Shown: one piece after another, positions 1,420 through 2,491 of the stretch | Numbering within the stretch: position 1 is the first letter of the stretch | How the letters are laid out: every line of letters begins with the position of its first letter | From: an uncultured Candidatus Saccharibacteria bacterium | GTDB taxonomy: Bacteria; Patescibacteriota; Minisyncoccia; Portnoybacterales; GWB1-42-6 | Direction of reading: 5' to 3' | Assembly (NCBI GenBank): GCA_964647205.1 | Contig: CAZYIG010000001.1 | Span: forward strand, 1 to 24,049 | DNA length: 24,049 nt | The notes under the pieces: model-generated | The model's database searches: none | The model's input: only the letters and a program-made list of their open reading frames with translations | Told to the model about the DNA's origin: nothing | Translations under genes and position numbers: made by a program

Positions 1420-1524
1420 AAAGTTTAAAGTTAAAAAATCAAAGTTCAAAATGACAATGCAAAATTCAAAATTTTAAATTTTTAACTGTCATTTTCCATT
1501 TTGAGATTTACACTTTACATTAAC
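1420..1524. repeat. Intergenic heptamer (AAA[AG]TT[CT]-like) array in inverted arrangement
   Basis: Units AAAGTTT, AAAGTTA, AAAAATC, AAAGTTC, AAAATGA ... AAAATTC, AAAATTT, followed by complementary units ATTTTCC, ATTTTGA, GATTTAC, ACTTTAC. Perfect core inverted repeat AAAATGACA (1448-1456) / TGTCATTTT (1487-1495). Confidence 0.7.
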
Positions 1525-1531
1525 TATCATC

Positions 1532-2491
1532 ATGTCTTATAAAAAAAACCCCCGACAAGAATCAGATAAAAATAACATCCGTCCCAACAAGCTCCTCGGT
1601 CAGCATTTTTTGCATGATAAAAATGTTCTGGCTAAAATTATCGGAGCAGCTAATTTAACTAGAAATGACACCATTCTAGAAGTTGGGCCCGGACTGGGTA
1701 TTTTAACGCGAGAGCTGGCCAAGTATGCCGGCCAAGTAATCGCTGTTGAAAAAGATAGAGCGCTGGCCGAAATTTTAACTAAAAAACTAGCCGATGAGCA
1801 AATTGATAATGTGAAAATTATTGCTGATGATGTTCTAAAATTTCTAAAAACTAAAAACTATCAACCATCAGCTGGGTACAAAGTAGTCGCGAACATTCCG
1901 TATTATTTGACTTCTCATCTCATCCGTCTTTTACTGGAGTTGTCCAATCCGCCCCAAGATATTATCTTGCTGATTCAAAAAGAAGTAGCCAAGCGTATTT
2001 GCGCTTGCCCTCCGAAGCTCGAAGAGCGAAGGGGGGCCAAACCCCTCCACCTTCGCCAAGGCTCCGGCGGACAAGCAAGAATGTCGCTCTTGGCTATTTC
2101 CGTCCAATTTTATGCCGAGGCAAAAATAATTGCTTCAGTTTCCCGGAAATCCTTTCGCCCAGAACCCAAAGTTGATTCGGCGATAATAAGGATAACTCCT
2201 AAAATTCTTCCCCCTTTGCAAAGGGGGATTGAGGGGGATTTAAAAAACACGGGGAAAATCCTCCCTAACCCTCCTTTTACAAAGGAGGGAATCGCTAATT
2301 TTTTCACTCTTCTTCACGCCGGCTTTAGTCATCCCCGCAAACAGCTTCTTGGAAACTTAAGCCAAGGGCTAAAAATTGAAAAAGAGAGGATTGGCGCCGC
2401 CCTAGCTAAGGTAGGAATAAAAAATAGCCAGCGAGCGGAAACGCTGACCGTGGAGAATTGGCTAGAATTATCTAAAAACTTAAATCTTTAA
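1532..2491 (+). CDS. rsmA: 16S rRNA m6,2A dimethyltransferase RsmA/KsgA with palindrome-derived insertions
   Basis: LGQHFL, ILEVGPGLG (motif I), VIAVEKD, VVANIPY (motif IV), QKEVAKR, FRPEPKVDSA, C-terminal RAETLTVENW. Confidence 0.97.
   Translation: MSYKKNPRQESDKNNIRPNKLLGQHFLHDKNVLAKIIGAANLTRNDTILEVGPGLGILTRELAKYAGQVIAVEKDRALAEILTKKLADEQIDNVKIIADDVLKFLKTKNYQPSAGYKVVANIPYYLTSHLIRLLLELSNPPQDIILLIQKEVAKRICACPPKLEERRGAKPLHLRQGSGGQARMSLLAISVQFYAEAKIIASVSRKSFRPEPKVDSAIIRITPKILPPLQRGIEGDLKNTGKILPNPPFTKEGIANFFTLLHAGFSHPRKQLLGNLSQGLKIEKERIGAALAKVGIKNSQRAETLTVENWLELSKNLNL
2004..2036 (+). repeat. In-frame REP-like palindromic element, GNA-bulge family, 33 nt
   Basis: CTTG-CCCTCC-GAA-GCTC-GAA-GAGC-GAA-GGGGGG. 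Confidence 0.9.
2046..2075 (-). repeat. In-frame REP-like palindromic element, GNA-bulge family, 30 nt, inverted
   Basis: Reverse complement reads CTTG-TCCGCC-GGA-GCC-TT-GGC-GAA-GGTGGA; same inner GCC-TT-GGC hairpin as 912-941. Confidence 0.9.
2208..2291. repeat. REPIN-like inverted doublet of CCCCCTTT..AAAGGGGG palindromes, 84 nt, in frame
   Basis: Perfect 20-bp palindrome TCCCCCTTTGCAAAGGGGGA (2209-2228) plus TTGAGGGGGATTT, a 14-nt spacer, then an inverted diverged copy AAATCCTCCCTAACCCTCCTTTTACAAAGGAGGGA (2256-2290). Confidence 0.85.

What the first reader, a model, noticed from the sequence alone, without database searches (positions are those of the whole stretch)
2208..2291. 84-nt REPIN-like doublet forming the RsmA interdomain linker
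Seen: a perfect 20-bp palindrome (2209-2228) with a GGGGGATTT tail, a 14-nt spacer, and an inverted diverged copy (2256-2290). The span from TT to AA is 84 nt (28 codons, LPPLQRGIEGDLKNTGKILPNPPFTKEGI region). It is unrelated to the GNA-bulge family, so one 960-nt gene carries two element families. Established: REPINs are inverted REP doublets mobilised by RAYTs and are normally extragenic. Inference: an intragenic REPIN tolerated between the catalytic and C-terminal domains.
Basis: partly seen in the sequence, partly recalled or inferred. Interest (0 to 1): 0.65.

Follow-up and report, generated by a model that had tools for sequence, protein, structure and literature searches.

The report
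Triplex-repeat doublet inside rsmA gene
An 84-base palindromic DNA repeat sits in frame in the hinge of an essential rRNA methyltransferase gene of a tiny groundwater bacterium; it belongs to the long-unexplained BoxC/PIT "triplex" kind of repeat, and in this genome the same repeat brackets every copy of a small nuclease gene (DUF559), not a RAYT transposase.

Summary
Window 2208-2291 is two inverted ~33-nt units around a 14-nt spacer, read in frame as 28 residues of the RsmA interdomain linker.

The insertion reading holds. Close RsmA orthologues have 20-23-residue linkers. Element DNA is 85% identical between orthologues against 66% for the rest of the gene (third codon positions 85% against 48%). 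AlphaFold gives the segment low confidence.

The REPIN/RAYT mechanism is not supported. Three distinct RAYT-like genes exist (one as two tandem copies), but all are flanked by other palindromes.

Each unit is a pyrimidine arm, a purine arm and a mirror-image purine tail. This is the published BoxC/PIT/TMECO intrastrand-triplex design (PMC4666352).
- The genome holds 26 such units: 8 lie inside 7 long ORFs (rsmA, mfd, priA and others) and 8 flank DUF559 genes.
- All six DUF559 (Vsr-like nuclease) genes carry an upstream unit whose tail supplies the ribosome-binding site, and the five whose downstream flank is assembled end in an inverted unit. This layout recurs in relatives and other phyla.
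- An exact 22-mer of the unit occurs in at least 120 contigs from many phyla.

The rsmA insert is best read as a gene-less doublet of this family. Whether DUF559 moves the repeats is inferred, not shown. Earlier notes of this scan reported the DUF559-repeat pairing on other DNA.

The parts
1532..2491 (+). rsmA/ksgA gene (319 aa), host of the insert
   Evidence: Pfam RrnaAD, E = 5e-54. Aligns to B. subtilis KsgA 6IFS with two extra segments. The pcrA - rsmA - spermine-synthase-like gene order is kept in orthologues.
2208..2291 (+). the whole 84-nt in-frame doublet (28 codons, residues about 226-253)
   Evidence: AlphaFold pLDDT is below 50 for residues 227-247.
2209..2228 (+). unit L hairpin: pyrimidine arm TCCCCCTTT (2209-2217), loop GC, purine arm AAAGGGGGA (2220-2228)
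   Evidence: Perfect 20-bp palindrome.
2232..2241 (+). unit L third block (tail AGGGGGATTT), mirror image of the purine arm; the three blocks lie on the + strand
   Evidence: 9 of 9 allowed triads when read by eye in this register; the automatic scan, in another register, gives 8 of 9. Contigs of other organisms share 2207-2241 and then diverge, which marks the unit's ends.
2242..2255 (.). 14-nt spacer AAAAAACACGGGGA between the two units
   Evidence: Absent from the gene-less doublets C93:683-749 and C66:3846-3911. Present, slightly varied, in the rsmA copies of orthologues and in a second rsmA site of L008.
2256..2265 (-). unit R third block (reads GGGAGGATTT on the - strand)
2269..2289 (-). 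unit R hairpin: CCCTCCTTT, loop TAC, AAAGGAGGG
   Evidence: Perfect 9-bp stem. The stem differs from unit L by a compensated C-G to T-A pair.

Best explanation
Window 2208-2291 is a gene-less inverted doublet of a dispersed DNA repeat. Each unit has the BoxC/PIT/TMECO design: a 9-nt pyrimidine arm, a 9-nt purine arm that pairs with it, and after a 1-3-nt loop a purine tail that mirrors the purine arm. One DNA strand of such a unit could fold into a hairpin and then into a purine-motif triple helix.

In this Patescibacteria genome and its relatives, the same units in inverted orientation form the two ends of cassettes of about 430-460 bp. Each cassette encodes one DUF559 (Vsr / PD-(D/E)xK-like) nuclease. 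The left tail supplies the Shine-Dalgarno sequence and the stop codon lies in or just before the right tail.

The rsmA copy has both ends and no nuclease gene. It landed, or was copied, into the RsmA interdomain linker in one of the two frame-and-orientation combinations that have no stop codon. It is translated as a roughly 28-residue, probably disordered loop and is tolerated there.

Its high conservation reflects forces acting on the DNA (recent insertion, copy-to-copy conversion, or constraint on the fold or recognition site), not selection on the peptide.

Shown here: the anatomy, family membership by sequence design, insertion status, DNA-level conservation, and the physical pairing with DUF559 genes. 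Inferred: that DUF559 nucleases recognise and spread or homogenise the units, and that a triplex forms in vivo.
For: Anatomy and chance.

Family census in the own genome:
- There are 39 pyrimidine/purine hairpins, against 1 in a shuffled genome.
- 26 of them carry a third block with at least 8 of 9 allowed triads, against 0 in the upstream control.
- Eight units lie inside 7 long ORFs. Among them are Mfd, PriA, a radical-SAM protein I take to be RlmN and an RluD-like synthase, where I judged the inserts to lie in or near interdomain regions.

Insertion status:
- RsmA orthologues in the window's well-supported clade of 10 mostly have 20-23-residue linkers.
- Presence of the element needs at least 9 changes on the RsmA tree, at least 6 of them forced by well-supported branches.
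- Sister orthologues carry different sub-variants, read in different frames through the first arm (PPLQRG against FPLYKRG).
- One orthologue has the same 84-nt variant at a second rsmA site.

DNA-level conservation: 85% identity in the element against 66% in the rest of the gene, and 85% against 48% at third codon positions.

Structure: the AlphaFold model has mean pLDDT 86, with low confidence only at residues 1-11, 172-179 and 227-247.

Pairing with DUF559:
- All 6 DUF559 genes of the genome have an upstream unit, and the 5 whose downstream flank is assembled end in an inverted unit.
- 29 of 31 DUF559 ORF hits have such a hairpin and tail within 70 nt of the ATG; the set is mostly relatives but includes three of the own genome's genes and a few overlapping loci.
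- G011:C16 (L175 1418-1876) is a cassette whose two ends match rsmA units L and R closely; about 90% is my estimate by eye from the alignment, which gives 75% mean column identity over all ten units.
- Three of the four DUF559 genes found in loci from other phyla show the full layout; the fourth is itself disrupted.
- Co-occurrence in 40 relatives: both 13, element only 1, DUF559 only 2, neither 24.

Spread and published design:
- The exact 22-mer occurs in at least 120 contigs from many phyla, against less than 1 expected by my estimate.
- The three-block motif design and its wide spread are published in PMC4666352.
Against: - No target-site duplication or defined insertion junction is visible.
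- Removing the 84 nt leaves a linker 5-8 residues shorter than in element-free orthologues, so this was not a clean simple insertion.
- All rsmA copies share one orientation and a related spacer. That fits common descent or transfer between rsmA genes as well as repeated insertion.
- None of the 15 same-family genomes has this 84-nt variant anywhere.
- DUF559 copies within the genome look old and diverged by eye and are not near-identical, as an active transposon's copies would be.
- Most units are solo or gene-less, so the nuclease could be a passenger.
- No nuclease activity, cut site or triplex formation was tested for this variant.
- Holder et al. found no mobility genes near the E. coli motifs.
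- Related genomes are not independent samples, so the co-occurrence table overstates the association.
Confidence: 0.7

Rival explanations
1. A REPIN in the strict sense: two inverted REPs mobilised in trans by a RAYT (HUH Y1) transposase.
For: The doublet architecture resembles a REPIN. The genome encodes RAYT-like Y1 genes at four places (three distinct; one as two tandem copies), all over the Pfam PF01797 cut-off, and their best NCBIfam match is 'REP-associated tyrosine transposase'. In the family, Y1 genes were found only in genomes that also have the element (7 of 7).
Against: - The NCBIfam scores are 33-41 bits against a cut-off of 80.
- Each Y1 gene is flanked by other palindromes (cores such as GAAGTCGGACTTC or GCAGTCGGAGTGC), not by these units.
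- Only 1 of 15 Y1 loci has a copy within 1.5 kb, about what chance gives.
- Five element-bearing relatives, 80-97% complete, show no Y1 gene.
- There is no GTAG or CGTC tag (PMC3733652).
Confidence: 0.06
2. The nuclease is a passenger. The doublets spread by some other route (an unknown transposase, or template switching or repair at triplex- and hairpin-forming DNA). DUF559 genes are homing-endonuclease-like genes that insert at the palindromic centre (ATTT|AAAT) of pre-existing doublets and use the tail as their ribosome-binding site.
For: - Filled and empty sites differ exactly at the centre, with both tails intact.
- A palindromic centre suits a dimeric PD-(D/E)xK enzyme.
- Solo and gene-less units far outnumber cassettes: 18 of 26 units in the own genome and 116 of 120 loci from other phyla.
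- DUF559 copies are diverged.
- Triplex motifs are linked to local genome instability (PMC4666352).
- Later checks recorded in earlier scan notes raised the same caveat.
Against: It leaves the dispersal of the units to new, non-homologous sites such as the rsmA linker unexplained. Unit sequence types go with particular DUF559 genes across relatives, which both models predict.
Confidence: 0.2
3. An old, vertically inherited linker extension that is kept because the peptide (RGIEGDL...PPFTKEG) does something for RsmA.
For: The same peptide sits at the same site, in the same orientation, in about 18 of 70 orthologues that are only 50-64% identical elsewhere.
Against: - Third codon positions are as conserved as first and second positions (85% against 48% in the rest of the gene).
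- Differences fall mostly in hairpin loops and the spacer.
- The distribution on the RsmA tree is patchy, and sister orthologues differ in sub-variant and frame.
- The same DNA occurs intergenically, in unrelated genes and around DUF559 genes.
- The segment is predicted to be disordered.
Confidence: 0.04

Closest known systems
BoxC / PIT (potential intrastrand triplex) / TMECO triplex-motif repeats (Holder et al. 2015, PMC4666352, which cites Hoyne/Maher 2000 and the BoxC papers of the 1990s)
   Same: The three-block design is the same: a C-rich 9-nt block, a loop, a G-rich 9-nt block, a loop of about 3 nt, and a second G-rich block that mirrors the first (class II purine motif). The repeats occur as single units and as palindromic pairs, are highly conserved, are spread widely and patchily among bacteria, and have no known function. 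Some units in this genome, such as C43:5841-5875 and C29:8237-8271, come close to the published TMECO pattern CCCTCNCCC-N3-6-GGGNGAGGG-N3-GGGNGAGGG.
   Different: The sequence variant differs (CCCCCTTT/AAAGGGGG with A/T triads at the stem base). Here the repeat is read in frame inside essential genes and brackets DUF559 nuclease genes. The paper reports extragenic positions and says no mobility functions were found nearby. Triplex formation has not been tested for this variant.
Rickettsia palindromic elements and intragenic REP dimers (Ogata 2000 as cited in PMC3733652; Di Nocera et al. 2013, PMC3733652)
   Same: These are short palindromic repeats inserted in frame in functional genes, often as dimers encoding 20-30 residues, and often in replication and repair genes. 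Here the hosts include pcrA (other insert families there, per scan notes I did not check), mfd, priA and rRNA-modification genes.
   Different: The sequence is unrelated, there is no GTAG or CGTC tag, the unit has three blocks, and the host phylum differs (Patescibacteria).
REPIN-RAYT systems / REPtrons (Bertels & Rainey 2011, PMC3116915; PMC3337134)
   Same: It works like one at the level of layout: an enzyme gene is bracketed by inverted copies of a hairpin repeat, and gene-less inverted doublets and singlets of that repeat are scattered in the genome.
   Different: The bracketed enzyme is a DUF559 Vsr-like nuclease, not an HUH Y1 transposase, and it is present in several diverged copies rather than one. 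About a third of the units are intragenic.
Vsr-like (EDxHD) homing endonucleases such as I-Bth0305I (from my own knowledge and from earlier scan notes; not tested here)
   Same: A small nuclease of the Vsr / PD-(D/E)xK-like fold acts as a selfish gene inserted at a specific DNA site.
   Different: Those enzymes live in introns or inteins. Here the gene is free-standing between repeat units. The only solved DUF559 relative found is 3HRL, 'endonuclease-like protein', and its function is not described.

Membership tests
BoxC/PIT/TM intrastrand triplex motif (criteria of Holder 2015: three consecutive blocks, stems 6-15 nt, at most 1 mismatch, loops 1-6 nt) | Pyrimidine block that pairs by Watson-Crick with the next purine block (stem at least 8 nt, loop 1-6 nt) | tested here: met
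   Unit L has a 9-bp perfect stem with a 2-nt loop. Unit R has a 9-bp perfect stem with a 3-nt loop.
BoxC/PIT/TM intrastrand triplex motif | A third block after a short loop that can lie antiparallel on the purine block with G*G-C, A*A-T or T*A-T triads (a mirror repeat) | tested here: met
   Both units score 8 of 9 allowed triads in the automatic scan, and 9 of 9 when read by eye in the best register. In the genome, 26 of 39 such hairpins have a third block with at least 8 of 9, against 0 in the upstream control. Arm and tail change together across subfamilies.
BoxC/PIT/TM intrastrand triplex motif | The single strand actually forms a triple helix (CD, NMR, footprinting) | not testable with these tools
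   This was shown only for the E. coli TMECO sequence in PMC4666352.
BoxC/PIT/TM intrastrand triplex motif | Match to the published TMECO sequence pattern CCCTCNCCC-N3-6-GGGNGAGGG-N3-GGGNGAGGG | tested here: not met
   The rsmA units read TCCCCCTTT / AAAGGGGGA / AGGGGGATTT, which is the same design with a different sequence. I therefore file it as a variant of this kind, not as TMECO itself.
REPIN / RAYT system | [quoted passage not shown] | tested here: met
REPIN / RAYT system | A RAYT gene flanked by the same REP units | tested here: not met
   The Y1 genes on C3, C55 and C81 are flanked by other palindromes. Only 1 of 15 Y1 loci in the family has the element within 1.5 kb.
REPIN / RAYT system | GTAG or CGTC tetranucleotide tag at one end of the REP (PMC3733652) | tested here: not met
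   No such tag is visible at the unit ends in the aligned copies.
MITE (miniature inverted-repeat transposable element) | Terminal inverted repeats plus a target-site duplication, and derivation from an autonomous element with the same ends | tested here: inconclusive
   Inverted ends are present, and a gene-bearing counterpart with the same ends exists (L175). No target duplication is seen at any copy.
Hairpin-bracketed DUF559 cassette (unpublished as far as I could find; noted earlier in this scan) | A DUF559 ORF between inverted hairpin-plus-tail units | tested here: not met
   The rsmA copy has both units and only a 14-nt spacer, with no ORF. It is a gene-less relative, not a cassette. Full cassettes are at C19:1908-2339, C19:3898-4315, C43:5436-5875 and C93:2529-2977.

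The most novel reading that the evidence does not exclude
DUF559 nucleases are the missing partner enzymes of the BoxC/PIT/TM 'triplex' repeats across bacteria. They recognise the folded or palindromic unit that brackets their own gene. By cutting there they copy, move or homogenise gene-less units and doublets. Those units can lodge in frame in loops and linkers of essential genes such as rsmA. This would be a REPIN-RAYT-like partnership built on an unrelated nuclease and a triple-helix-forming repeat.
Probability: 0.3. Interest if true: 0.85.

Novelty: new variant of a known kind. Interest (0 to 1): 0.6.

Why it matters
BoxC/PIT/TM repeats have been known since the 1990s. They form triplexes in vitro and mark unstable genome regions, but they have no known origin, mover or function (PMC4666352).

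This locus adds three points:
- The design is not confined to intergenic DNA of proteobacteria and cyanobacteria. It also sits in frame inside essential genes of ultra-small Patescibacteria.
- Nearly the same 22-mer is shared across phyla.
- The units are consistently the ends of DUF559 nuclease cassettes, which gives a concrete candidate enzyme to test.

For annotation, it explains the odd low-complexity peptides (PLQRGIEGDL..., PPFTKEG, PLFKGGLGGI...) and the variable protein lengths in candidate-phyla-radiation proteomes.

For RsmA itself, the insert looks like tolerated cargo in a permissive linker that many element families have colonised repeatedly.

Tried and rejected
- **Rfam**: only sub-threshold generic hairpin (miRNA-like) matches, so no described RNA family fits.
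- **Peptide search**: phmmer with the 32-residue element peptide against 1.84 billion representative proteins gave only 2 hits. The query is too short and biased, so this says nothing about how many proteins host the element.
- **Spacer-specific pattern in 40 relatives**: no copy outside the window, so I could not show other insertion sites of the 84-nt variant in close kin. A second site was found only in the orthologue locus L008.
- **Shared neighbour genes**: clustering ORFs from 120 loci of other phyla found no common neighbour apart from DUF559, which was present in 4 loci.
- **Presence/absence polymorphism**: contigs from four public metagenome runs were laid on the gene. Three runs hold the full gene with the insert, and no skipped form was seen. 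Contigs drop rare variants, so this does not show absence.
- **Literature**: searches for candidate phyla radiation or Patescibacteria with palindromic in-frame insertions, and for DUF559, found nothing on this pairing.
- **G-quadruplex** (read from the sequence): the loops between the G-runs are too long, so I dropped this.
- **Terminator or Shine-Dalgarno-sequestering regulatory hairpin for rsmA**: dropped, because the element is inside the ORF.
- **Assembly artefact**: rejected, because the identical insert is present in independent assemblies and runs.
Full report
**1. The observation**

The gene at 1532-2491 (+) is rsmA/ksgA (Pfam RrnaAD, E = 5e-54). It lies between a PcrA/UvrD helicase gene and a spermine-synthase-like membrane protein gene. 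Orthologues keep this gene order.

The sequence at 2208-2291 is as described:
- a perfect 20-bp palindrome, TCCCCCTTT-GC-AAAGGGGGA (2209-2228);
- the loop TTG, then the tail AGGGGGATTT (to 2241);
- a 14-nt spacer (2242-2255);
- the inverted, slightly diverged copy AAATCCTCCC-TAA-CCCTCCTTT-TAC-AAAGGAGGG (2256-2289).

The stretch is read in frame as LPPLQRGIEGDLKNTGKILPNPPFTKEG.

Perfect hairpins of at least 9 bp occur at only five places in the window, listed as 8 overlapping hits against a mean of 1 in 100 dinucleotide shuffles, and two of those places lie in this 84 nt. As single-stranded DNA the stretch folds into three hairpins (z = -4.5). As RNA it folds into one long hairpin (z = -3.4). 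No Rfam family matches.

**2. It is an insertion in a permissive linker**

Against B. subtilis KsgA (6IFS), the protein has two extra segments: one at about residues 160-183 (the other element family, DNA 2004-2075) and this one in the interdomain linker.

An AlphaFold model built on 98 homologues is confident overall (pLDDT 86, pTM 0.83). Its only low-confidence segments are residues 1-11, 172-179 and 227-247, the last two being the two inserts.

Among the 70 best orthologues, 26 have short linkers of 20-24 residues, 18 carry this element's peptide, and 26 carry other long inserts that look derived from other palindromic families, such as CHPERSEGS...AQNDK.

On an RsmA tree built without the insert columns:
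- The window's protein sits in a well-supported clade of 10. The other 8 members lack this element, and 5 of them have short linkers.
- Presence of the element needs at least 9 changes on the tree, at least 6 of them forced by well-supported branches.

**3. The conservation is at the DNA level**

I compared six orthologues that are 58-64% identical in protein over the full length.
- The 84 nt are on average 85% identical, against 66% for the rest of the gene.
- Third codon positions are 85% identical in the element, against 48% elsewhere.
- Differences fall mostly in the hairpin loops and the spacer, while the stems are almost invariant.

Sister orthologues carry different sub-variants. One has loop GC and is read PPLQRG. 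The other has loop ATA and is read FPLYKRG, in another frame through the first arm. One orthologue (L008) carries the same 84-nt variant, spacer included, at a second site in rsmA.

These facts argue against a peptide kept by protein-level selection. They argue for repeated insertion or copy-to-copy conversion.

Three facts point the other way:
- All rsmA copies share one orientation.
- Removing the 84 nt leaves a linker 5-8 residues shorter than in element-free orthologues.
- None of 40 relatives has this spacer variant anywhere.

**4. A dispersed family**

A profile built from three full copies finds about 25 loci in the 0.87-Mb genome. These include spacer-less 66-nt doublets in intergenic DNA (C93:683-749, C66:3846-3911).

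Matches occur in 12 of 15 genomes of the same GTDB family, with up to 26 or more matches per genome and mostly single units of about 35 nt. They occur in 2 of 2 genomes of one sister family and in 0 of 18 of another. In a phylum-wide sample, 11 of 400 genomes have matches.

The exact 22-mer AAAGGGGGATTRAGGGGGATTT is present in at least 120 contigs. The hosts are Pseudomonadota, Desulfobacterota, Chloroflexota, Nitrospirota, Acidobacteriota, Elusimicrobiota and others. The partner unit often lies 10-60 nt away in inverted orientation. I estimate less than one such match by chance.

**5. Not a RAYT-driven REPIN**

The genome has Y1-transposase genes at four places: three distinct genes, one of them as two tandem copies (C3, C55 and twice on C81). 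Their best NCBIfam match is the REP-associated tyrosine transposase model, but below its cut-off.

Each of these genes is flanked by its own, different palindromes. Of 15 Y1 loci in the family, one has this element within 1.5 kb, which is about the chance expectation. Five element-bearing relatives show no Y1 gene. The units also lack the GTAG/CGTC tags of the REP superfamilies (PMC3733652).

**6. What the unit is**

In every copy the purine arm is followed, after 1-3 nt, by a purine tail that is its mirror image. An example is AAAGGAGGG-TTA-GGGAGGATTT. The tail can therefore lie antiparallel on the purine arm with G*G, A*A and T*A contacts.

I scored this formally:
- The genome has 39 pyrimidine/purine hairpins with 9-nt arms, against 1 in a shuffled genome.
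- Of these, 26 have a third block with at least 8 of 9 allowed triads.
- None reaches that score in a control window on the other side of the hairpin, and the score distribution is bimodal.
- Arm and tail change together across subfamilies.

Earlier notes of this scan named this design as BoxC/PIT/TMECO. I then read Holder et al. 2015 (PMC4666352).
- Their motif is a 9-nt C-rich stem, a 3-6-nt loop, a 9-nt G-rich stem, a 3-nt loop and a second 9-nt G-rich stem.
- It forms a class II purine triplex in vitro.
- It is highly conserved, widespread and patchy, occurs also as palindromic pairs, and marks unstable loci.
- The authors found no transposase or integrase remnants nearby.

The rsmA units meet their sequence criteria but not the TMECO consensus. 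They are a variant of that kind.

**7. The DUF559 link**

I clustered the neighbours of copies from other phyla and then searched this genome with Pfam PF04480.

All six DUF559 genes of the genome have a unit upstream, and the five whose downstream flank is assembled end in an inverted unit. The sixth, on C37, runs into the contig end. The layout is:
- hairpin L;
- tail L (such as AGGAGGGATTT), with the ATG directly after it or up to about 16 nt further on, so that the tail can serve as the Shine-Dalgarno sequence;
- an ORF of about 115-125 codons;
- a stop codon that is part of, or lies just before, the inverted tail R (as in TAAATCCNCCC);
- hairpin R.

Eight of the 26 high-scoring units are such cassette ends.

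In the wider set, mostly relatives but including three of the own genome's genes and a few overlapping loci, 29 of 31 DUF559 ORF hits have the upstream hairpin and tail, and 17 have both ends. Three of the four DUF559 genes found in the loci from other phyla show the same layout; the fourth is itself disrupted.

G011:C16 (L175 1418-1876) is a 458-bp cassette. Its left and right units match rsmA units L and R closely, in the same order; about 90% is my estimate by eye, and the ten-unit alignment has 75% mean column identity. Minus the ORF, it is essentially the rsmA doublet.

Co-occurrence over 40 relatives is: both 13, element only 1, DUF559 only 2, neither 24. Related genomes are not independent, so this table is only supportive.

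The closest solved structure is 3HRL, 'endonuclease-like protein'. I found no paper on this pairing.

**8. Intragenic copies**

Eight of the 26 units lie inside 7 long ORFs:
- rsmA (both units);
- Mfd, between the DEAD and Helicase_C domains;
- PriA;
- a radical-SAM protein I take to be RlmN;
- an RluD-like pseudouridine synthase, between the S4 and catalytic domains;
- two further ORFs (one has no Pfam match; the other was not checked).

This parallels the in-frame Rickettsia palindromic elements and the intragenic REP dimers, which encode 20-30 residues and favour replication and repair genes (PMC3733652). From the sequence, the doublet has one open frame in each orientation, which explains the two recurrent peptide types...PLQRGIEGDL...PPFTKEG and ...PSF/PLFKGGLGGI...

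**9. Mechanism and its limits**

Most likely (0.7), this is a gene-less doublet of a triplex-motif repeat family that is translated and tolerated in the RsmA hinge.

That DUF559 nucleases spread or homogenise the units is inferred from layout and co-occurrence only. I put it at about 0.3-0.4. The main alternative is that the nuclease is a homing-type passenger of the doublet centre.

No cut site, target duplication or activity is known. DUF559 copies in the genome are diverged, and solo units predominate. Later checks quoted in earlier scan notes raised the same caveats.

Contigs from three further public metagenome runs carry rsmA with the insert, and no insert-less form was seen. Contigs of other organisms share 2207-2241 and then diverge, which marks the unit's ends.

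**10. Verdict**

This is a new variant of a known kind: BoxC/PIT/TM repeats on one side, and in-frame palindromic elements on the other.

The scan has reported the DUF559-repeat pairing before on other DNA. Here I re-derived the pairing independently before consulting those notes. I also extended it to an ultra-small Patescibacteria genome and to a gene-less, in-frame copy.

Noticed in passing
window 2004-2075: The other in-frame insert of rsmA (about 21 residues) is absent from a 298-aa RsmA (P0002, locus L005) that is 99% identical over the aligned residues (93% by BLASTP with the gap) and keeps the 84-nt element. An orthologue only 64% identical (P0003) has a similar insert at the same position. 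Gain or loss of that element family is therefore very recent.
   Followed up: partly
window 1420-1531: The gap between pcrA and rsmA is a third repeat family, an AT-rich imperfect palindrome of about 100 nt. It has copies or partial copies on about 20 contigs of the genome. In metagenome contigs its summed depth is very high, up to about 70 times that of the gene.
   Followed up: partly
G000 C3:2712-3476, C55:233-922, C81:1320-2036 and 2245-2961: These are RAYT-like Y1 transposase genes, one of them as a tandem duplicate. Each is flanked by its own palindromes, for example CTTGCGAAGTCGGACTTCGCAAG.
   Followed up: no
RsmA orthologues P0003-P0070: The RsmA interdomain linker is a hot spot across this clade. 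Of 70 orthologues, 26 carry other long inserts with peptides typical of translated palindromic repeats (CHPERSEGS...AQNDK, SEAKDL...QNDK, and others). A second variable loop, after strand 4, also hosts such inserts.
   Followed up: partly
L008 1755-1838 and 2114-2198: One orthologous rsmA (GCA_041643195.1) carries two copies of the same 84-nt spacer-bearing variant at two different sites of the gene.
   Followed up: yes
G000 C13:11440-11560: The upstream hairpin of one DUF559 cassette has another GC-rich palindrome (GCCTGCCTGTCCGGTAGGCAGG) nested in its loop, and that DUF559 match runs through a TAA. This looks like elements inserting into elements, and a possibly decaying nuclease gene.
   Followed up: no
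units genome-wide, e.g. window 2269-2289: The purine arm AAAGGAGG is a perfect Shine-Dalgarno sequence. The pyrimidine arm CCTCCTTT resembles, from my own knowledge, the anti-Shine-Dalgarno end of 16S rRNA. Copies inside ORFs therefore put strong internal Shine-Dalgarno-like sites into mRNAs. Any effect on translation is unknown.
   Followed up: no
P0097 (434-aa RsmA homologue): A DUF559 domain, preceded by unit-like peptide, is fused in frame to the C-terminus of RsmA in one relative.
   Followed up: no
control genomes: The PF04480 search did not register E. coli among the 14 control genomes, although earlier scan notes call E. coli ycjD a DUF559 gene next to BoxC. I did not resolve this.
   Followed up: no
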